Virus record (IMG/VR): IMGVR_UViG_3300033072_000473
Span: 1 to 64,000 of that record
Origin: a virus
Lineage: Duplodnaviria; Caudoviricetes
Length of the DNA stretch: 64,000 nt
Strand: one strand, 5' to 3'
Shown: one piece after another, positions 4,490-62,086 of the stretch
Position numbering within the stretch: position 1 is the first letter of the stretch
How the letters are laid out: each line of letters opens with the position of its first letter
Program-made: the position numbers and the translations under genes
Notes under the pieces: model-generated
Database searches by the model: none
What the model saw: the letters and a program-made list of their open reading frames with translations, nothing else
What the model was told of the DNA's origin: nothing

Positions 4490-5764
4490 ATGAAATATAG
4501 TATTGTAATACCAACCTATAACCACTGTAATACCCTACTAAAGCCTTGCTTAGAATCTATATTTAAGTATACTGATATGGCTGATGTAGAATTAGTTATC
4601 TCTGCTAATGGTTGTACAGATAATACACAAGATTATTTAAATAATCTACAACGTAATTTTACAGAGTTAGGGTTTGAACAGCACTTAAAAGTAGTGTATT
4701 CTGAGCAGCCTCTTGGTTTTGCCAAAGCTATTAATTTAGGTATCATGGCAACTACTACAGAAAAAATAGTATTGTTAAATAATGATATTATTTTACTAGA
4801 GCAGTTTAAAAATCAGTGGTTAGATATGCTCAATGCTCCTTTTAATCAAGATACTAATTGTGGTATTTCATGCCCAATTATACAGTACTCTCCAGAAGCA
4901 AATCATAACTTTGCAGTATTTTTCTGTGTAATGGTAGATAAAAGGGTATTTAATACTATTGGTTTATTAAACGAAGAATATGGTATTGGTAGTGGTGAAG
5001 ATGTAGAGTTTTGCATAGAGGCTTTAAAAGCTGGATTCAATATTCTAGAGTGTGTTCCAAAACAGTATTTAAATGATGTAATGTACACGGGAAGTTTCCC
5101 TATATATCATAAAGGTGAACAAACAGTTTTAGATAGTAGTTTAGTTTCAGATTATAAAAGTGTATATTACCAAAATGGTCTAAAACTAGCTAGAAAGTAT
5201 AATATTGAGCATTACAGAAAACTTTTAAATAATAATTATGAGCGTCATCTGTCTATTAATGGAGAACAGGTTCCTCCGCGCGAGCAAGCTAGGTATTTAT
5301 GGGCTTCTAGTAGTACTATAGGTGCCAAAGTACTAGAACTTGGCTGTTCTAACGGGTATGGGTCACAATATTTTAAAAATGTTGAGTATACTGGTATAGA
5401 TTATGATCCTCAAATTATTGAGTGTGCTAAACAAGAAAATTGGGGTACTAATAAACAGTTTATTCATGGAGATATTAATACTCTAGAACTAGAGTACTAT
5501 GATACTATTGTTGCTATGGAAGTAATCGAGCATCTAGACAATGGTCTGGAAATTGTAGAAAAGCTCAAAAAATACTGTAAACGATTACTAGTAACTGTTC
5601 CTTATAAAGAACCGCCCGGTTTATGGGGAGAACACCATAAGCTACACTGGTTAGAAGAATCCCATCTACCTGGGTTTACATACAAGTTCTGTGATGAATT
5701 TGGTAATATTCATGACTCACCACATGGTGAAATTAATTTAATGCTTTGTCAGTATGACCACTAA
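4490..5764 (+). CDS. GT2 glycosyltransferase fused to a class I SAM methyltransferase
   Basis: N-terminal YSIVIPTYN, LLNNDI and EDVEFC (GT-A fold); C-terminal VLELGCSNGYG, GIDYD and MEVIEHL (SAM-binding fold). Confidence 0.85.
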   Translation: MKYSIVIPTYNHCNTLLKPCLESIFKYTDMADVELVISANGCTDNTQDYLNNLQRNFTELGFEQHLKVVYSEQPLGFAKAINLGIMATTTEKIVLLNNDIILLEQFKNQWLDMLNAPFNQDTNCGISCPIIQYSPEANHNFAVFFCVMVDKRVFNTIGLLNEEYGIGSGEDVEFCIEALKAGFNILECVPKQYLNDVMYTGSFPIYHKGEQTVLDSSLVSDYKSVYYQNGLKLARKYNIEHYRKLLNNNYERHLSINGEQVPPREQARYLWASSSTIGAKVLELGCSNGYGSQYFKNVEYTGIDYDPQIIECAKQENWGTNKQFIHGDINTLELEYYDTIVAMEVIEHLDNGLEIVEKLKKYCKRLLVTVPYKEPPGLWGEHHKLHWLEESHLPGFTYKFCDEFGNIHDSPHGEINLMLCQYDH

Positions 5765-7180: not shown

Positions 7181-7722
7181 TAACCCTAGATGACTATAAA
7201 GAGTATGCAGGTATTACAAGCATAGACTTTGATGATAAATTACAGAGTATTGTTACTAGAATTAGTGAACTAGTAAAAACATATTGTGGTAGAAAATTTA
7301 TTGATAGCTATAATAAAGCTACACAACAGTTTACTAACTTAGTAGAGTATAGTAATGTAGACGGTACTTTTTATCCAACAGAATTTCCTCTACAGAGTTT
7401 AGTATCTGTAGAGTATAGTATAGATCTAGGTGAAACTTATACTACTTTAGCAGGTTGTGCCATAGATAAGTCAAGGGATGCTATCTATATTCCTGAGGAG
7501 GGCAGAGAGGGTATAAATATGTTTAAGATTACTTATACTGGTGGGTATCAAAAAACTCCAGAAGACCTTAAACTTGCCTGTTTAGACTTAGTAGATTACT
7601 ACTATAAAAATGAGGCAGTACCTCGTCGTACTACAATGAATAATACTGTTGAATATATTACTAGTGCTGATATGCCCTCACATATTAAGCGAGTACTAGA
7701 CCTTTATAGAGTTTTATTATAA
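7168..7722 (+). CDS. Head completion / head-tail connector protein
   Basis: LITLDDYKEY...VKTYCGR...YTGGY..TPEDLKLACLDLV pattern; position as in T5-like phages. Confidence 0.7.
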   Translation: MATLITLDDYKEYAGITSIDFDDKLQSIVTRISELVKTYCGRKFIDSYNKATQQFTNLVEYSNVDGTFYPTEFPLQSLVSVEYSIDLGETYTTLAGCAIDKSRDAIYIPEEGREGINMFKITYTGGYQKTPEDLKLACLDLVDYYYKNEAVPRRTTMNNTVEYITSADMPSHIKRVLDLYRVLL

Positions 7723-9308
7723 TGGCTAATACTAGAGCCCGAATTAGTGCTACTTCTTTTGTTACTTCTTTATTAGATAATACTAAGTCGCTAAGAACCG
7801 CTTTAGAAAAATATGTACACTTTGTACCCATTAGTTATGGTGTAGTAAGTGAGTTATTAAACAGTATTTTACCAGAAGAAGAGCATAGAAAGTACTATAA
7901 TGAAGTTTATAGTAAGTTGGTAAGTTTATATCCTAACACTCCTGGTACTGCAATAGATATAAATAATATAGCAAGTATTATAACTAATTCCAATTCAAAA
8001 AGATTAAGTGGTAAAACAGCAGTAGGTATATATAAAGATAATTCCCTTATAGGTGTGCTTACTAGTAACTATGGAAATGCTTCAAAACTAGTAGTAAAGG
8101 TAATACAAGATACTATAGGTGTAGATCTAGCAGTCGGCCACGTAGTTGGTAATATACAGGTATTACAGTCTAGTAAACTGGGTGGACACTTATGGATAAA
8201 AAATAATTTATCTATGAGAAGCCCTCTGTCTATGAAACTAGCGGTAATACAAGAGTTATTCATGTTAGCGGAACACATTGCTAATGATCAATTTGATGAC
8301 ATAATATCTTGGTACTTTAATCAACAAGGTACATATTATACTGCTAAGCATAGTTTTTTAATACTAAAGGATGCTTTAACTAGTACTGGTAAAGTATTTA
8401 CAGGAGATCTTAATAAGTTATCCGATGATACTACAGTTATTAGTAAAACAGCTATAGTATCAGGTATTAAATCTTTCTATACTAAGTATTTTAAACCTGT
8501 AAATGAAAAGTTAAAGAAAGCTGGCGATGACTTATCCGCTAGCCAGGTTACCTCTTATATTAAAACAGGTCTAGATGCTCTTGCTGAAAAGCACATGGAA
8601 TATTATAATAAGGTAATAGATACTTCTGTTATAACAAAAGAGTTTACTAGTACCTTATCCTCTTTAAAAATAATATTTGTTTTACCTCAAACTTCTTTAT
8701 TTAATAGTGGAGAACTAGCAGCACTAGAAAAAACTATAGCTAGAGAAGCTATTGCTTTTGGTAATACAGCGGAAAATTTTAAAAGTTCCCCTTCATTAAA
8801 AGAGTATGTTATTGATACTATAATAGATACTATTAAAGAGGGATCTAGTAAAGAGTTCTCTAATAAAGTAACTGCTGTTACTGGTAAAGTTAACGGCCTA
8901 AAATTAAAGGCACCAAAAGTATCTAAAGTTACTCAAAAGGTATATGAACGTAAAAGTACTCCTACTACAAGACTACGTAATTTGCATGGCCAATTTACTT
9001 CACTTACTAAATTAGAAACCTTGATGCGGTCTTTATTACTGGAAACTGTACAAAAGAATATGCAGCGCCCAAACCTACGGAATCAAACCGGAAGATTTGC
9101 TAGTTCTATTAAACTTGATCGATTACAACGTGAACGTGATGGAGCTATTACTGCCTTTCTTTCCTATATGAAGTACCCATACGCTACTTTTGAAAGGGGT
9201 GGAAAACAAGGATTTAGAGGGTATTACCCGTCAAGATTAATTGATCAATCTGTACGAGAACTTGCTGTAAAACTAGTAACTGCACGTATGAAAACTGTAA
9301 TAGTATAG
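7722..9308 (+). CDS. Tail completion (neck) protein, T5 p143-like C-terminus with long N-terminal extension
   Basis: C-terminal QTGRFASS...YMKYPYATFE...PSRLIDQSVRELA; lies between head-completion and tail-terminator genes. Confidence 0.5.
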   Translation: MANTRARISATSFVTSLLDNTKSLRTALEKYVHFVPISYGVVSELLNSILPEEEHRKYYNEVYSKLVSLYPNTPGTAIDINNIASIITNSNSKRLSGKTAVGIYKDNSLIGVLTSNYGNASKLVVKVIQDTIGVDLAVGHVVGNIQVLQSSKLGGHLWIKNNLSMRSPLSMKLAVIQELFMLAEHIANDQFDDIISWYFNQQGTYYTAKHSFLILKDALTSTGKVFTGDLNKLSDDTTVISKTAIVSGIKSFYTKYFKPVNEKLKKAGDDLSASQVTSYIKTGLDALAEKHMEYYNKVIDTSVITKEFTSTLSSLKIIFVLPQTSLFNSGELAALEKTIAREAIAFGNTAENFKSSPSLKEYVIDTIIDTIKEGSSKEFSNKVTAVTGKVNGLKLKAPKVSKVTQKVYERKSTPTTRLRNLHGQFTSLTKLETLMRSLLLETVQKNMQRPNLRNQTGRFASSIKLDRLQRERDGAITAFLSYMKYPYATFERGGKQGFRGYYPSRLIDQSVRELAVKLVTARMKTVIV

Positions 9309-52102: not shown

Positions 52103-52191
52103 TGGCGGGTGACTGTGAGCACGATTCACATACTGAAACTCAGTACGAGCTGCTTAGCAGGCAGTCCTAGCTCCTCGCTAGTTAATCACCC
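52103..52191 (-). tRNA. tRNA-Ser(GCT), atypical T-loop
   Basis: ctgc-CT GCT AA-gcag, long variable arm, G73, CCA; T-loop reads ATCGTGC. Confidence 0.8.
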
Positions 52192-52718
52192 TTAAAATAC
52201 TTTCTAACCTCTTCAAAAGCTATAGGAATATAGTTAATACTCTCTACAGAAGCATTGAAGTAAAACGGGTCTATAACTTCTTGATTATACTTATTAGTTA
52301 GCATTACACGCTTATCGTGTAGATGCCCATGTACATTACCACGAAACCTACCTTGAGATTCAGGATGAACTGGAATATGACTAAAGATTAGCTTATCCAT
52401 TACATGATAAGCTCTAATATCTCTAAAGTGCTCAGTATACTCTGTTAGCTTAAAAATATCATGGTTGCCCTTAATCAGAACTTTATCACCATTAAGACGA
52501 TAAAGTGTAGACATGGCACGACGGTTAATAACTACATCGCCCAGGTGGTAAACCTTATCACAAGGTCTAACCACACTATTCCAGTTTTCAACTAGAGCTT
52601 CATCCATTTCTTCTATAGTAGACCAAGGGCGTAGTTTTGTTACCCCATCTCTGCGTAGGAACTGCGTAACCCCTAAATGTCCAAAATGGGTATCTGATAC
52701 TATAAAAATATTAGCCAT
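52182..52718 (-). CDS. Calcineurin-like metallophosphoesterase
   Basis: SDTHFGH, HLGDV, KGNHD, SHIP, HGHLH. Confidence 0.9.
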   Translation of the reverse strand: MANIFIVSDTHFGHLGVTQFLRRDGVTKLRPWSTIEEMDEALVENWNSVVRPCDKVYHLGDVVINRRAMSTLYRLNGDKVLIKGNHDIFKLTEYTEHFRDIRAYHVMDKLIFSHIPVHPESQGRFRGNVHGHLHDKRVMLTNKYNQEVIDPFYFNASVESINYIPIAFEEVRKYFKGD

Positions 52719-52728
52719 TGTATTCTTT

Positions 52729-52794
52729 CAACAGGATCGACCTTTTACAAGTCAGATTAGCAGTCTGGTGTATTTTATTTGCTGAAACGATCCT
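52729..52794 (-). ncRNA. Y-RNA-like element E1 (CAGCAA motif) with Ser anticodon-loop mimic
   Basis: Stem aggatcg/cgatcct, then TTTCAGCAA; inner hairpin caga-CTGCTAA-tctg. Confidence 0.6.
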
Positions 52795-52804
52795 AAATAA
52801 GTAG

Positions 52805-52895
52805 TGGCGGGTCGAGAGAGAGTCGAACTCTCAAGGGCTTATTAGGCCTCGACTGTTTTCAAGACAGGTTCCATCGCCAATTGGATTGCCGACCC
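52805..52895 (-). tRNA. tRNA-Ser(TGA)
   Basis: ctgt-CT TGA AA-acag, long variable arm, CCA. Confidence 0.9.
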
Positions 52896-53540: not shown

Positions 53541-53627
53541 CATCAGGATACTGTGCCTACCATTAGGCTTATCTCGCTAAGACGAAACAATGGAATCGAA
53601 CCATTAAAAATTTTGCTGAAAGTATCC
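53541..53627 (-). ncRNA. YrlA-like RNA E2: CAGCAA stem plus circularly permuted tRNA mimic
   Basis: Stem ggatact/agtatcc + TTCAGCAA; inside, 5'->3': T arm aatgg-TTCGATT-ccatt, 7-bp acceptor-like hairpin gtttcgt-ctta-gcgagat, D-like arm gcct-aatggt-aggc. Confidence 0.75.
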
Positions 53628-53633
53628 AAAAAT

Positions 53634-53751
53634 TGGCCCCGAAACTAGGATTCGAACCTAGAACCTCTCCATTACAAGTGGAAGTTAAAGATGCGGTAAA
53701 TATTCTTACAGAATACTATTTTTAGCGCTCTACCGATTGAGCTATTTCGGG
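53634..53751 (-). tRNA. 118-nt tRNA-Thr(TGT) with a 42-nt insertion between D arm and anticodon arm
   Basis: Acceptor cccgaaa/tttcggg + G + CCA; D arm gctc/gagc; anticodon arm ttcca-CT TGT AA-tggag; T arm ctagg-TTCGAAT-cctag; insertion at 53684-53725. Confidence 0.75.
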
Positions 53752-53758
53752 ATTAAAC

Positions 53759-53836
53759 TGGTCTCAGTGGTAGGATTCGAACCTACGGTTTCCTGCTCCC
53801 AAAGCAGGCGACTTAACCAAACTAGCCTACACTGAG
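53759..53836 (-). tRNA. tRNA-Pro(TGG)
   Basis: ctgc-TT TGG GA-gcag, CCA. Confidence 0.92.
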
Positions 53837-54633: not shown

Positions 54634-56049
54634 CTACAAACTATAACGATCGCTCATTACAGCTTTCAGCATAATTGCTTCAGGAGTAAATTCTTCTAAA
54701 TCGCCACTAAGGACTGCCTTCATAATAGAAGGCGAGAATCCCGAAATAAGTGCCACGCCTTGTTGATTAAACTTAGCAGGAACATTATCATTGGCGTTTA
54801 GATTCCAAAATACAACTTTAGGCACTTGATAGCCAGCACGCTGATATTTGCTGGCAATCATTTGCATAGCATTATGGTCGTACTCAGCGCAATGATCGAA
54901 CTGCATATCCGAAAGGATAAGCAAAATTTCAGGCATTTCGCTTTGTGGTACTTGATTTTTCACTGCTACACCCAGCACTTTATCAAAGGCCACATGTAGG
55001 TTAGTATTCATATTCCACAGAGATTTAACCATTTGTTGTGCACGCTGAACTACATCACCTTTGAGGCTAAGTAGTTCAGGAGTACCAGAGAAAGTAAGGA
55101 ACAAATCCTTGAACTTACCCTGGTTCTTTTCACTAAGGTATAAGCCTAGTGAAACTGCAACATCCATGCAGGTAGTTGAACCTTTACTACCGGCTGCACA
55201 ACTCATAGAGCCTGAAACATCTACCATCGGTAGAATACTTGCAGAACCTACGTAGTTTGGCAGCGCTTTCCACTGAGCTACAATCAAATCCTTTTGAGTT
55301 TGGTTATACTCAGCAGTATAATAAAGGTTAGCAACTCCCTTTAGCACGTCATAAGGGTAAACTGCACCAGCATTAACTTTTACAGTTTTATCGCCCTCTT
55401 TAAGTTTAGCTACATATTCTGCGTACTTGGGAGTATTACGGAAAAATGCAGTCTTATAACGTGCATGTGCTAGACTAGGAACATGGGAGAAATTAATCTC
55501 TTCCCACTGCTTAGAGCACATTTGTTGTTCTACAACTTTAGTCAAATTGACTAGAGTTTTACGATAGAACTTTGGTGACCAACCAAGATACTGACGGAAT
55601 TGTTCCGCCACACGGCCTTTACGTGGAGTCCACTTAGCCGCCAGACCGTTGCCTTCGGCAAGAGCTTGGCGCACTAGTTCGAACCCTACGTCTTGCATCT
55701 TAGGGGTTTGAAACGCAAACAAATCATCAAAGCGACCAAGGTCGGGAACCTTTTTAGCTAGACGAATTGCAGACTCCATATCATTCTTTTCCAGATATTG
55801 CAAAATATCACGGAAAATCTGGCGTTCACCTACCCCTTGACGAATATCACGAACCCATTGTGCAATGCGTAGCGCAATATCCTTGTTCTCTACTAGAGCT
55901 GCGACAAAATCAGGAATAATATCCTTACCACGAGATGCACCAATCTTAAAGAAAAGATCAGTACAAGCATTTTCAGTTGCCTTAAATGCTTTCATCCCAT
56001 TCTGGGTACGAACTTCTTGATTTTGTACAGCTTGAGCAAAAGTAGTCAT
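54634..56049 (-). CDS. Ro60/TROVE-like protein with C-terminal VWA domain (DUF2828-type)
   Basis: RDIRQG.GER, AAKW.PRK, I.FSHVPS.A..RY, VNAGAVYPYDV, MIDAS-like DVSGSM, ILSDMQFD, VVFWNL, LISGFSP. Confidence 0.8.
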   Translation of the reverse strand: MTTFAQAVQNQEVRTQNGMKAFKATENACTDLFFKIGASRGKDIIPDFVAALVENKDIALRIAQWVRDIRQGVGERQIFRDILQYLEKNDMESAIRLAKKVPDLGRFDDLFAFQTPKMQDVGFELVRQALAEGNGLAAKWTPRKGRVAEQFRQYLGWSPKFYRKTLVNLTKVVEQQMCSKQWEEINFSHVPSLAHARYKTAFFRNTPKYAEYVAKLKEGDKTVKVNAGAVYPYDVLKGVANLYYTAEYNQTQKDLIVAQWKALPNYVGSASILPMVDVSGSMSCAAGSKGSTTCMDVAVSLGLYLSEKNQGKFKDLFLTFSGTPELLSLKGDVVQRAQQMVKSLWNMNTNLHVAFDKVLGVAVKNQVPQSEMPEILLILSDMQFDHCAEYDHNAMQMIASKYQRAGYQVPKVVFWNLNANDNVPAKFNQQGVALISGFSPSIMKAVLSGDLEEFTPEAIMLKAVMSDRYSL

Positions 56050-56060
56050 TTTTTAAATAT

Positions 56061-56127
56061 CTCCAGGTTAAGTTTTTGGTTTCTTGATAATTTGTAAGAA
56101 ATTTCTGTTTATTGCTGTAGTTAACCT
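56061..56127 (-). ncRNA. Y-RNA-like element E4 abutting the SD of the TROVE-like gene
   Basis: Stem aggttaa/ttaacct + CTACAGCAA; 3' arm runs directly into ggag SD. Confidence 0.6.
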
Positions 56128-56132
56128 AAAAT

Positions 56133-56264
56133 CAACGGGATGCTTTGTAACTGTTTATTAAACGAAAACCGTTACCCAAACGTTCGTCGACACCGATATC
56201 TATAAATAGATATCTGAAAGCCTCGACCATCTCCATAAGTGTATATGGTTGCTGAAGTCATCCC
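56133..56264 (-). ncRNA. Y-RNA-like element E5, multibranched
   Basis: Stem gggatg/catccc + ACTTCAGCAA; inner helices ccata/tatgg, gtcga/tcgac, gatatctat/atagatatc, gtaac/gttac. Confidence 0.6.
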
Positions 56265-57508: not shown

Positions 57509-57583
57509 TGGTGCTCCCACTGTGAGTCGAACACAGATTCGCGGGTTACAAAGCCGCAGTAATAGCCATTATACTATAGGAGC
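57509..57583 (-). tRNA. tRNA-Thr(TGT), normal size
   Basis: G1-C72, C2-G71, loop TT TGT AA, CCA. Confidence 0.88.
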
Positions 57584-57664: not shown

Positions 57665-57805
57665 TTAATCTTCAACTACTTCACAGTAATTTCTAGGTTC
57701 TTGCTGTACTCGGGCCAGAATGGCCCCGATTCTTTGCTTCCAGTAGTCTGAAACGCCTGAATCTCCAGCAAGAAGTTTTAGTAATTCAAATATTTCTTTG
57801 TCCAT
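57665..57805 (-). CDS. 46-aa hypothetical protein (MDKEIFELL...); not in ORF track
   Basis: Exactly fills the tRNA-His/tRNA-Phe gap; no SD, ATG 3 nt after CCA. Confidence 0.4.
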   Translation of the reverse strand: MDKEIFELLKLLAGDSGVSDYWKQRIGAILARVQQEPRNYCEVVED

Positions 57806-61994: not shown

Positions 61995-62086
61995 TGGTAG
62001 AAGCGGCAGGAATCGAACCTGCATTGGCCAATTATCTATTGCACACGGGATATAAGTCCGCTGTTTTACCGTTAAACTACGCTTCC
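61995..62086 (-). tRNA. Atypical 92-nt tRNA with TAT anticodon and long variable arm
   Basis: Acceptor ggaagcg/cgcttct, loop CT TAT AT, 22-nt variable region, T arm gcagg-TTCGATT-cctgc, CCA. Confidence 0.75.

What the first reader, a model, noticed from the sequence alone, without database searches (positions are those of the whole stretch)
53634..53751. tRNA-Thr(UGU) carrying a circularly permuted Y-RNA stem: an apparent tRNA/Y-RNA chimera
Seen: all four tRNA arms and CCA are intact, but 42 extra nt lie between the D arm and anticodon arm. The insert reads gtattc-tgtaa-gaatat-TTA-CCGCAT, i.e. the 3' stem strand, a short loop, the 5' stem strand and the motif. This is the permuted order of the free elements. 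In E2 the motif stem also sits between the D-like arm and the T side, so the two RNAs are topological permutations, except that this one keeps an open acceptor end and an anticodon. A normal tRNA-Thr(UGU) exists at 57509-57583, so this copy is redundant for decoding. Inference: a chargeable tRNA with a built-in docking site for the Ro-like protein, which could bring it to the ribosome or synthetase or bait a Thr-anticodon nuclease. The insert lacks group I/II intron or bulge-helix-bulge signatures.
Basis: partly seen in the sequence, partly recalled or inferred. Interest (0 to 1): 0.9.

Follow-up and report, generated by a model that had tools for sequence, protein, structure and literature searches.

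The report
Phage tRNA with built-in Ro60 handle
A phage gene encodes a complete threonine-type tRNA that carries an extra 42-base arm. The arm is the same hairpin-plus-motif "handle" found in small RNAs that accompany the phage's Ro60-like ring protein, so the RNA is probably a tRNA-shaped partner of that protein, of a type that I did not find described in the papers I could search.

Summary
Window 53634-53751 (minus strand) is a full cloverleaf: 7-bp acceptor stem, D, anticodon (UGU) and T arms, core tertiary nucleotides and an encoded CCA. Exactly 42 nt lie between G26 and the anticodon stem.

- **The insert is a conserved module.** It is an 8-bp hairpin, then 2 nt, then CCGCAU. It is 42/42 identical in a relative whose Ro60-like protein is 77% identical, and a 53% relative has the same architecture.
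- **It belongs to a large family.** About 50 distinct phage sequences, some in MAG contigs, have D arm, hairpin, 2-3 nt, CAGCAA, usually an anticodon-like arm, then T arm. Cultured jumbo phages (Serratia BF, GAP32, CBB) carry one, annotated as an odd tRNA. All 7 hairpin pairs covary.
- **Family membership was tested.** A covariance model built without this element scores it 89 bits; plain tRNAs score 49 or less.
- **The family tracks one protein.** A DUF2828-vWA protein, whose predicted fold is Ro60/TROVE, is in 33/38 family records and 0/16 controls.
- **Best reading (0.6):** a Y-RNA-like partner built on a whole tRNA.
- **Untested:** charging, splicing and the nuclease-bait idea. The Thr-specific bait idea is weakened because relatives carry other anticodons.

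This scan has met the same handle system before on other DNA (Felix O1-like phages, and one tRNA mimic).

The parts
53634..53751 (-). Whole RNA gene: 118-nt tRNA-Thr(UGU)-type cloverleaf with a 42-nt handle insert and an encoded CCA
   Evidence: Rfam tRNA 49 bits. Family model R1 89.4 bits, E 2e-20. Sequence read.
53745..53751 (-). Acceptor stem, 5' strand CCCGAAA. It pairs with 53638-53644.
   Evidence: 7/7 pairs by inspection.
53727..53742 (-). D arm GCUC-AAUCGGUA-GAGC (A14, G18, G19 present)
53684..53725 (-). 42-nt insert between G26 (53726) and the anticodon stem
   Evidence: It is 42/42 identical in L199:4816-4857. L003 has the same place and architecture.
53699..53717 (-). Handle hairpin AGUAUUCU-GUA-AGAAUAUU
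   Evidence: It is in the MFE fold. All 7 homologous pairs covary across 34 family members.
53691..53696 (-). Handle motif CCGCAU. The family consensus is CAGCAA.
   Evidence: Model R1 aligns it to the CAGCAA columns. The variant CCGCAA occurs in the free element upstream of the protein gene in L199, and CAGCCA in L003.
53667..53683 (-). Anticodon arm UUCCA-CUUGUAA-UGGAG; anticodon UGU at 53674-53676
   Evidence: The same arm occurs in L011, L017 and L179. L072, L122 and L192 have GGU, and L199 has UAU.
53645..53661 (-). T arm CUAGG-UUCGAAU-CCUAG
53634..53644 (-). Acceptor stem 3' strand UUUCGGG, discriminator G, CCA
54634..56049 (-). Gene for the 471-aa Ro60-like protein (DUF2828 + DUF7788/vWA with a MIDAS DxSGS motif), the presumed partner
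   Evidence: Pfam. The AlphaFold model has pLDDT 77. The top Foldseek hits are all Ro60/TROVE over the full length.
53546..53627 (-). Free handle RNA E2, YrlA-like. It starts 6 nt after the CCA of the handle-tRNA.
   Evidence: Read: GGAUAC-UUU-CAGCAA, T arm, loop-closed acceptor stem, D arm, GUAUCC.
56065..56127 (-). Free handle element E4, directly upstream of the Ro60-like gene. Its 3' strand abuts GGAG.
   Evidence: Counterparts exist in L199, L002 and L003.
56137..56264 (-). Free handle RNA E5 (GGGAUG-ACUU-CAGCAA ... CAUCCC)
   Evidence: L199 has a counterpart.
52733..52794 (-). Free handle RNA E1 (AGGAUCG-UUU-CAGCAA ... CGAUCCU)

Best explanation
The gene makes a tRNA-scaffolded Y-like RNA.

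**How it is made (inferred).** It lies in the phage tRNA array, so it is probably transcribed with the neighbouring tRNAs. RNase P and the 3'-end enzymes would cut it out like any tRNA, and CCA is already encoded.

**How it folds (inferred).** It should form a normal L-shaped tRNA core. All core tertiary nucleotides are present, including G26 and A44, which flank the insertion point. From the hinge between the D stem and the anticodon stem an extra arm projects: a 4-bp closing helix, an 8-bp hairpin and a single-stranded UA-CCGCAU stretch.

**What the arm is.** It is the 'handle' shared by the free small RNAs E1, E2, E4 and E5. By co-occurrence and by analogy with Ro60-Y RNA pairs, it is the docking site for the phage's Ro60-like ring protein (54634-56049).

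**What the RNA would do.** It would couple the Ro60-like protein to a complete tRNA body. The tRNA body would play the part that the tRNA-like domain plays in bacterial YrlA, as a tether or gate for a tRNA-binding partner.

**Shown:** gene anatomy, conservation, covariation, family membership, association with the protein, and the protein's predicted fold.

**Inferred:** protein binding, retention of the insert, and biological role.

**Left open:** whether the RNA is also aminoacylated.
For: 1. **Anatomy.**
2. **Conservation.** The insert is 42/42 identical in L199, whose Ro60-like protein is 77% identical, while the D loop, N26, the anticodon and the CCA differ. L003 (53% protein identity) has a 41-nt insert at the same 26/27 position. 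Its hairpin sequence differs, its motif is CAGCCA, and its closing helix carries a compensatory change, UAAA/UUUA to UUAA/UUAA.
3. **Unbiased scan.** A scan for tRNAs with a long gap between the D and T arms recovered 8 lineages with the hairpin plus CAGC[A/C]A. A motif scan gave about 50 distinct members.
4. **Hairpin length.** The hairpin is 6 bp or longer in 51/63 members, against 12% of shuffles.
5. **Covariation.** On a MAFFT alignment, all 7 hairpin pairs change on both sides, 86-88% of cells are paired, and 0/500 shuffles reach the observed score.
6. **Membership.** Model R1, built without the window, L003 or L199, scores the window element 89.4 bits. The best ordinary tRNA scores 49.
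7. **Protein association.** A Ro60-like homologue is in 33/38 family records, and the 5 misses are fragments of 39% completeness or less. It is in 0/16 control records, Fisher p about 1e-9. It occurs in only 711 of 50,697 cultured phage records.
8. **Protein fold.** The top hits are Thermus phage phiLo Ro60 (9kop, 9l5y; E 5e-8, TM about 0.58), Xenopus, Deinococcus and human Ro60, all over the full length. The MIDAS residues are invariant.
9. **Same handle outside tRNAs.** It occurs in non-tRNA contexts in this window and four times in Felix O1, directly after its Ro60-like gene.
10. **Precedent.** YrlA Y RNAs mimic tRNA, and M. smegmatis YrlA is cut by RNase P and receives CCA (PMC4201824).
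Against: - No binding data exist. The link to the protein rests on co-occurrence among records that are not phylogenetically independent, and the controls are a convenience sample.
- The hexamer here, CCGCAU, differs from the consensus at 2 of 6 positions.
- The Rfam YrlA model does not recognise this RNA or E2 (17-21 bits against a gathering score of 69). The known Ro60 motif GNCGAA is absent.
- The tRNA part is kept so perfectly (7-nt loop, U33, A37, CCA) that a plain decoding role after removal of the insert cannot be excluded.
- The ViennaRNA MFE fold (-31 kcal/mol) disrupts the anticodon and T arms. The cloverleaf evaluates at -24.2 kcal/mol. This is common for tRNAs.
Confidence: 0.6

Rival explanations
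1. It is a working, chargeable tRNA that keeps the extra arm, much as class II tRNAs keep a long variable arm. It decodes ACA while carrying the Ro60-like protein. This would give the phage a tagged tRNA pool, or a sentinel or decoy against host anticodon nucleases.
For: - The acceptor stem, U8, the D and T loop tertiary nucleotides, the 7-nt anticodon loop with U33 and A37, and the encoded CCA are all intact.
- 22/45 family members keep a canonical anticodon arm, against 3.7% of shuffles.
- Close relatives switch between the two Thr anticodons UGU and GGU (L011/L072).
- Several phages carry 2-5 handle-tRNAs with different anticodons.
- The insertion point pairs with position 44, where class II variable arms emerge (established tRNA structure; inference).
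Against: - The copy is redundant with a canonical tRNA of the same anticodon in 3 of 3 phages checked.
- L199 has the same body but anticodon UAU, and L022/L063 differ UGA/UGU, so amino-acid identity is not conserved.
- Some members lack an anticodon arm (L061, L119) or have C33 (L003).
- The window copy has C1-G72 and G73, whereas the phage's canonical tRNA-Thr has G1-C72 and A73.
- There are no charging data.
Confidence: 0.22
2. The 42 nt are an intervening sequence. They are removed after transcription, perhaps with help from the Ro60-like protein and an RNA ligase, to give an ordinary 76-nt tRNA-Thr.
For: - Deleting the insert leaves an exactly canonical 76-nt tRNA.
- A short closing helix (UAAA/UUUA) brings the two junctions together, and it covaries in L003.
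- GenBank records annotate family members simply as tRNA-Lys, tRNA-OTHER or tRNA-Undet.
Against: - The region has no group I or II intron match, and 42 nt is far too short for one.
- I saw no bulge-helix-bulge at the junctions by eye, and bacteria are not known to have the matching endonuclease.
- The same module stands alone in RNAs that have nothing to splice (E1, E2, E4, E5; Felix O1).
- In some members it replaces the anticodon loop, so excision would not give a tRNA (L061, L119).
- Contigs from RNA libraries bridge the insert unspliced, and no joint across it was listed. This is weak evidence: contigs only, and DNA carry-over is possible.
Confidence: 0.12
3. It is a dead tRNA gene, disrupted by chance insertion of a mobile copy of the handle element.
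For: - The hexamer is degenerate relative to the consensus.
- A normal tRNA-Thr(UGU) exists elsewhere in the array.
Against: - The insert is 42/42 conserved in L199.
- The same position and architecture recur in about 50 distinct sequences from very different phages, with covariation.
- All tRNA core nucleotides are intact.
- The element scores 89 bits on the family model.
Confidence: 0.04

Closest known systems
YrlA-type bacterial and phage Y RNAs with Rsr/Ro60 (Rfam RF02553; Chen et al. 2014, PMC4201824)
   Same: - A small RNA encoded beside a Ro60-type protein gene.
- It combines a protein-binding helix and motif with tRNA-like D and T arms and an acceptor stem.
- M. smegmatis YrlA is even cut by RNase P and receives CCA.
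   Different: - In YrlA the RNA ends form the Ro60-binding stem, the acceptor stem is loop-closed, and there is no anticodon arm. Here the acceptor stem is open with CCA, a full anticodon arm is kept, and the binding module is a hairpin inserted at 26/27.
- The motif is C[A/C]GCA[A/U], not GNCGAA.
- The Rfam model does not detect it.
- The protein is the DUF2828 branch, Ro60-like by predicted fold only.
Yrl1/Yrl2 with Ro60 of Thermus phage phiLo (PMC12135203; PDB 9KOP, 9L5Y)
   Same: - A phage-encoded Ro60 ring with phage-encoded partner RNAs next to the gene.
- It is the best structural match of the window protein.
   Different: - The phiLo RNAs are stem-bulge-stem Y RNAs with a CGAA motif, not tRNAs.
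- Sequence identity between the proteins is about 15%.
Bas63 gp130 (Felix O1-like phage), a Ro60-like protein reported to counter the Ppl defence (preprint 10.1101/2024.10.10.617714)
   Same: - The Felix O1 protein in the same gene position, just upstream of the tRNA array, is 39% identical to the window protein.
- The authors guessed that some of the 'tRNAs' might be Y RNAs.
   Different: - No partner RNA was mapped in that work.
- Felix O1 has free handle RNAs. I saw no handle-bearing tRNA in the locus I read.
Dictyostelium Class I RNAs (Rfam RF01414)
   Same: A short stem formed by the RNA ends, followed by a conserved motif. My recollection that this motif ends in ...UACAGCAA was not checked here. 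The Rfam model gives repeated sub-threshold hits exactly on the free handle RNAs (21 and 20 bits).
   Different: - All scores are far below the gathering score of 41.5.
- The hits concern the free elements, not the tRNA chimera.
- These are eukaryotic RNAs with a different known binding protein.
- This is a lead only.
Intron-containing tRNAs (group I in tRNA-Leu(UAA); archaeal bulge-helix-bulge introns, including non-canonical positions)
   Same: An extra segment interrupts an otherwise canonical tRNA gene. This window also holds a group I intron in a tRNA-Leu.
   Different: - There is no ribozyme core and no BHB.
- The same module exists outside tRNAs.
- The module correlates with a Ro60-like protein, not with a splicing enzyme.
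Class II tRNAs (long variable arm)
   Same: A tRNA that carries a fifth arm, emerging at the D-stem/anticodon-stem hinge, which translation factors tolerate.
   Different: The arm here leaves from the 26/27 side, not from 44-48, and ends in a conserved single-stranded motif.

Membership tests
tRNA (Rfam RF00005) | Score at or above the gathering threshold, with all four arms | tested here: met
   49 bits against a gathering score of 29, model positions 1-71, with the insert treated as an insertion. The arms were read.
tRNA (Rfam RF00005) | Conserved core and tertiary nucleotides (U8, A14, G18, G19, R15:Y48, G26/A44, G53-C61, T54-Psi55-C56) | tested here: met
   By inspection of the sequence: U8, A14, A15:U48, G18, G19, G26, A44, UUCGAAU loop.
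tRNA (Rfam RF00005) | Standard length without intervening sequence between positions 26 and 27 | tested here: not met
   42 extra nt. ARAGORN does not call the gene.
tRNA (Rfam RF00005) | Aminoacylation and use in decoding | not testable with these tools
   Needs acid-urea gels or charging assays.
YrlA / Y RNA (Rfam RF02553) | Rfam score at or above the gathering threshold | tested here: not met
   Only a 17.1-bit partial hit at 53727-53787, against a gathering score of 69. E2 is not hit at all.
YrlA / Y RNA (Rfam RF02553) | GNCGAA(N)G motif on the 5' strand of the Ro60-binding stem (PMC4201824) | tested here: not met
   The motif is absent. CCGCAU or CAGCAA follows the helix strand instead.
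YrlA / Y RNA (Rfam RF02553) | Encoded next to a Ro60 (TROVE + vWA) gene | tested here: met
   The gene lies 880 nt away. Its predicted fold matches Ro60 over the full length. The family-wide association is 33/38 against 0/16.
YrlA / Y RNA (Rfam RF02553) | tRNA-like D arm, T arm and acceptor stem | tested here: met
   Present, and more complete than in YrlA.
YrlA / Y RNA (Rfam RF02553) | Bound by the Ro60 protein | not testable with these tools
   Needs EMSA, RIP or a structure.
Handle-bearing phage tRNAs (family defined here; model R1) | Full-length match to a covariance model built without this sequence | tested here: met
   89.4 bits, E 2e-20, model positions 1-119, with hairpin and motif in register. 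Ordinary tRNAs score 49 bits or less.
Handle-bearing phage tRNAs (family defined here; model R1) | A 5-9 bp hairpin, then 1-4 nt, then CAGCAA, between the D arm and the anticodon-like arm | tested here: inconclusive
   The hairpin (8 bp) and spacing (2 nt) fit. The hexamer is CCGCAU, 4/6. Clade relatives use CCGCAA and CAGCCA.
Handle-bearing phage tRNAs (family defined here; model R1) | The genome encodes the DUF2828-vWA Ro60-like protein | tested here: met
   Window 54634-56049.
Group I / group II intron in a tRNA | Ribozyme core detectable; length of 200 nt or more | tested here: not met
   No intron family matches the region at E of 1 or below apart from noise on the other strand. The insert is 42 nt.
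Archaeal-type BHB tRNA intron | Bulge-helix-bulge (3-4-3) at the exon-intron junctions | tested here: inconclusive
   None seen by eye at 26/27 and 68/69. No dedicated program was run.

The most novel reading that the evidence does not exclude
Phages that encode a Ro60-like ring protein also encode sets of real, chargeable tRNAs, each carrying a docking arm for that protein. The protein would then ride on, guard, repair or report on specific tRNAs during infection. For example, these tRNAs could act as sentinels or decoys for host anticodon nucleases, with anticodons switching between close relatives as hosts change. This would be a direct physical link between a Ro60 particle and the translation or tRNA-damage machinery.
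Probability: 0.2. Interest if true: 0.88.

Novelty: new variant of a known kind. Interest (0 to 1): 0.74.

Why it matters
**An open question becomes testable.** Ro60-Y RNA particles are found from bacteria to humans, and it is still unclear what the tRNA-like part of bacterial Y RNAs is for. Here the 'tRNA-like part' is a whole tRNA with an anticodon and CCA, and the protein-binding part is a compact, transplantable 20-30 nt handle. One can ask directly whether a Ro60 partner RNA is charged, meets the ribosome, or is a target or decoy in tRNA-directed phage defence.

**It explains odd annotations.** Genes labelled tRNA-OTHER, tRNA-Undet or a 122-nt tRNA-Lys in cultured jumbo phages (Serratia BF, GAP32, CBB, Yersinia fHe-Yen9-04) fit this family.

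**It gives a widespread phage protein family a candidate RNA ligand.** The protein occurs in 711 cultured phage records. A Felix O1-type homologue is reported to counter a bacterial defence system.

Tried and rejected
- **RNA evidence.** Only Logan contigs were available. Contigs from metatranscriptome runs X15 and X17, and from X13, bridge 53629-53764 and beyond unspliced, with 2-3 differences. No joint over the insert was among those listed. Contigs cannot show RNA ends, strand or rare spliced forms, and DNA may be present, so this does not settle splicing.
- **Anticodon as a mutational hot spot.** Among 19 near-identical pairs, 2 of 38 differences fall in the anticodon, against 2.6% expected. 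This is not significant and the pairs are not independent. I report only three anecdotal switches: UGU/UAU, UGU/GGU and UGA/UGU.
- **Single-sequence AlphaFold model of the protein.** It was unusable (pLDDT 40), so I repeated it with a 15-sequence alignment.
- **Sequence searches of the protein against the PDB.** phmmer found nothing. A profile gave only a vWA hit and E 0.33 to TROVE entries. The Ro60 likeness rests on predicted fold.
- **Rfam.** It has no family for the handle RNAs. YrlA and Dicty Class I matches are all sub-threshold.
- **Literature.** 'DUF2828' gives only incidental mentions. I found no paper describing tRNAs with such an insert.
- **blastn of the region against cultured phages.** It found only generic tRNA similarity and no close relative of this phage.
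- **Counting the CAGCAW hexamer across the window.** It is uninformative because the pattern is too short. The CAGCAA at 57701 lies in a small ORF, not in an element.
- **Rest of the genome (64001-87211).** It holds no further member.

Full report
**1. What is at the coordinates**

The window is part of an 87-kb IMG/VR virus record. It holds a minus-strand array of about 20 tRNAs, a two-piece tmRNA and a group I intron. Rfam's tRNA model matches 53637-53751(-) at 49 bits and reports a long insertion. ARAGORN does not call the gene.

Read 5' to 3', the RNA is:
- acceptor stem CCCGAAA;
- U8, A9;
- D arm GCUC-AAUCGGUA-GAGC;
- G26;
- a 42-nt insert;
- anticodon arm UUCCA-CUUGUAA-UGGAG;
- variable loop AGGUU;
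- T arm CUAGG-UUCGAAU-CCUAG;
- acceptor stem UUUCGGG, discriminator G, CCA.

The nucleotides that build the tRNA core are all present: U8, A14, A15:U48, G18, G19, G26, A44, G53-C61 and the TΨC loop. Without the insert the sequence is exactly 76 nt.

The insert is C-UAAA-AAU-[AGUAUUCU-GUA-AGAAUAUU]-UA-CCGCAU-C-UUUA-AC. That is a possible 4-bp closing helix, an 8-bp hairpin and a single-stranded hexamer. The hairpin is part of the MFE fold. The full cloverleaf evaluates at -24.2 kcal/mol against an MFE of -31 kcal/mol, which is not unusual for tRNAs.

A canonical tRNA-Thr(UGU) with a different body lies at 57509-57583.

**2. The insert is conserved and structured**

I fetched relatives through the neighbouring 471-aa protein.
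- **L199.** Its protein is 77% identical, from another metagenome. It has the same gene with the 42-nt insert identical at 42/42. The D loop (2 nt), N26, the anticodon (UGU to UAU) and the CCA differ.
- **L003.** Its protein is 53% identical. It has a 41-nt insert at the same 26/27 position. The hairpin sequence is different (GGAUACA-GUCG-UGUAUCC), followed by GUA-CAGCCA. The closing helix is changed in a compensatory way (UUAA/UUAA). The anticodon-like loop is ACGAUAA.

Two pattern scans of IMG/VR followed.
- One asked only for a D stem, a long gap and a T arm.

Together they yielded about 50 distinct sequences with a 7/7 acceptor stem and this plan: D arm, A/G-rich linker that often starts (C)GUA, 5-9 bp hairpin usually closed by a GNNN loop, 1-4 nt, CAGCAA, A/U-rich linker, usually an anticodon-like arm, T arm.

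The evidence for structure is as follows.
- The hairpin is 6 bp or longer in 51/63 sequences, against 12% of shuffled controls.
- On a plain MAFFT alignment of 34 members, all seven hairpin pairs show changes on both sides, 86-88% of cells pair, and no shuffle or slid control comes close.
- A covariance model built from 25 members, leaving out the window, L003 and L199, scores the window element 89.4 bits (E 2e-20) over its full length with hairpin and motif in register. The best ordinary tRNA scores 49 bits.

The hexamer in the window (CCGCAU) is the most divergent one seen. Within this clade, however, the free element upstream of the protein gene in L199 reads CCGCAA and L003 reads CAGCCA.

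**3. It is the same module as the free RNAs, in permuted order**

The window holds four free elements on the same strand:
- E1 at 52733-52794;
- E2 at 53546-53627;
- E4 at 56065-56127;
- E5 at 56137-56264.

In each, a helix 5' strand is followed by YUU/CUA and CAGCAA, and the partner strand lies at the 3' end. E2 has a T arm, a loop-closed acceptor stem and a D arm between them, which is the YrlA plan. It starts 6 nt after the CCA of the handle-tRNA.

In the tRNA, the strand that precedes the motif pairs with a strand just upstream through a small loop.

Counterparts of E4 and E5 are present in L199, L002 and L003. Salmonella phage Felix O1 has four such free elements (AGACCNN-UUA-CAGCAA ... 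NNGGUCU) directly after its homologous protein gene.

**4. The partner protein**

ORF 54634-56049(-) matches Pfam DUF2828 plus DUF7788.
- Sequence searches against the PDB give only a vWA-type match with the MIDAS motif.
- An AlphaFold model from a 15-sequence alignment has pLDDT 77.
- Its best Foldseek hits are all Ro60/TROVE proteins over the full length: Thermus phage phiLo Ro60 (E 5e-8, TM about 0.58), then Xenopus, Deinococcus and human Ro60.
- Homologues occur in 711 cultured phage records. Some are annotated 'Ro-like RNA binding protein' in mycobacteriophages and 'RNA-binding protein' in Felix O1.

The association with the RNA family is strong.
- 33 of 38 records with a handle-tRNA encode the protein. 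The five without it are fragments of 39% completeness or less.
- Counting only records at least 90% complete, the result is 18 of 18.
- None of 16 control records encode it. These were other long-insert tRNA-like hits from the same scan.
- Fisher p is about 1e-9.

Two caveats apply. The records are not phylogenetically independent, and the controls are a convenience sample.

**5. What the tRNA part tells us**

- 22 of 45 distinct members keep a strictly canonical anticodon arm (at least 4 of 5 stem pairs, 7-nt loop, U33, purine 37), against 3.7% of shuffles. Several more have weaker stems with typical loops.
- The anticodons are diverse: Thr UGU/GGU, Lys UUU/CUU, Ile UAU/GAU, Asp GUC, His GUG, Tyr GUA, Phe GAA, Val UAC, Arg UCU, Ser GCU and others.
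- Some phages and MAG contigs carry 2-5 handle-tRNAs side by side.
- In some members (L061, L119) the handle sits inside what would be the anticodon stem, and no anticodon loop exists. This is the architecture an earlier follow-up of this scan described on other DNA.
- The handle-tRNA duplicates a canonical tRNA of the same anticodon in all three phages checked: the window, L003 and L017.
- Close relatives differ in the anticodon while the body stays the same: UGU/UAU, UGU/GGU and UGA/UGU. A simple count does not show the anticodon to be a significant hot spot.

**6. Interpretation**

The best-supported reading is a Y-RNA-like partner of the phage Ro60-like protein, built on a complete tRNA.
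- The handle docks the protein. This is inferred from co-occurrence, from the same handle lying just upstream of the protein's own gene, and from analogy with Ro60-Y RNA.
- The tRNA body provides processing by RNase P and the 3'-end enzymes, stability, and probably an interaction surface for a tRNA-binding factor, as proposed for the tRNA-like domain of YrlA.
- There is precedent for an opened, CCA-tailed acceptor stem in a Y RNA: M. smegmatis YrlA (PMC4201824).
- A Felix O1-type homologue (Bas63 gp130) is reported to counter the Ppl defence. Its authors guessed that some adjacent 'tRNAs' are Y RNAs (10.1101/2024.10.10.617714).
- A phage Ro60 with its own Y-like RNAs can assemble with host PNPase in vitro (PMC12135203).

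Whether the RNA is also charged and used in decoding, or serves as a decoy or sentinel, is open. The insertion point faces position 44, where class II variable arms emerge, so an extra arm there need not block tRNA function. This last point is inference.

A splicing explanation cannot be excluded but is disfavoured:
- the insert has no ribozyme core;
- I saw no bulge-helix-bulge;
- the same module occurs in RNAs with nothing to splice;
- some members would not yield a tRNA after excision;
- RNA-library contigs carry the unspliced form (weak evidence).

A pseudogene is very unlikely, given the conservation.

**7. Novelty**

tRNA-mimicking Y RNAs beside Ro60 genes are known. A full tRNA carrying the Ro60-type handle as a fifth arm at 26/27 is not described in the papers I could search and is not in Rfam.

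GenBank records list such genes as tRNA-Lys, tRNA-OTHER, tRNA-Undet or tRNA-Phe in Serratia phage BF, Erwinia pEa_SNUABM phages, Pectobacterium CBB, Yersinia fHe-Yen9-03/04, Cronobacter GAP32 and Xanthomonas XbC2.

This scan has already met the handle system on other DNA: Felix O1-like phages, and one tRNA mimic in which the handle replaces the anticodon loop.

I class it as a new variant of a known kind.

Noticed in passing
L005-L077 group (e.g. L005:745-826, L016:4465-4579): About 50 gut-phage contigs carry a different 118-nt tRNA-like gene with a long insert between the D and T arms (GGUGCAGGGAUGCGAAAUAGAAGCAC...CGCAUUUCCGGGCGC). None of the 4 records tested (L005, L008, L015, L016) encodes the Ro60-like protein. 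It looks like a separate, unexplained insert-bearing tRNA family.
   Followed up: partly
window 52809-52895 (-): An 87-nt class II tRNA-Ser(UGA)-like gene with a long variable arm lies directly upstream of free element E1. ARAGORN misses it, and Rfam tRNA-Sec scores it 41.7 bits, below the gathering score.
   Followed up: partly
window 61995-62086 (-): A tRNA-Ile(UAU) of 92 nt has a long variable arm, which is unusual for an Ile tRNA. It does not carry the handle module.
   Followed up: no
window 56064-56126 (-); L198:7717-7783 and 7884-7941 (+): The Rfam Dictyostelium Class I RNA model gives repeated sub-threshold hits (20-21 bits against a gathering score of 41.5) exactly on free handle RNAs of two unrelated phages.
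   Followed up: partly
window 53628: Contigs of close relatives in four public runs have 92 extra nt between the handle-tRNA and E2. Relative L199 lacks E2 altogether and runs straight into an ORF. This junction is therefore variable.
   Followed up: no
L017:5023-5143, 5215-5334, 8991-9106; L011:4579-4701, 7370-7484, 7590-7706; L275 (4 copies); L232 (3 copies): Several phages and MAG contigs carry small arrays of handle-bearing tRNAs with different anticodon-like loops (Asp, His, Thr, Lys and others).
   Followed up: partly
window 56065-56127 (-) and the start codon at 56049: The 3' strand of free element E4 (UUAACCU) abuts the GGAG in front of the Ro60-like gene's start codon, and relatives have the same arrangement. 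The protein might regulate its own translation through the handle.
   Followed up: no
window 52182-52718 (-): A 178-aa calcineurin-like metallophosphoesterase gene lies next to E1. Enzymes of this superfamily serve as end-healing phosphatases in some RNA repair systems. No link was tested.
   Followed up: no
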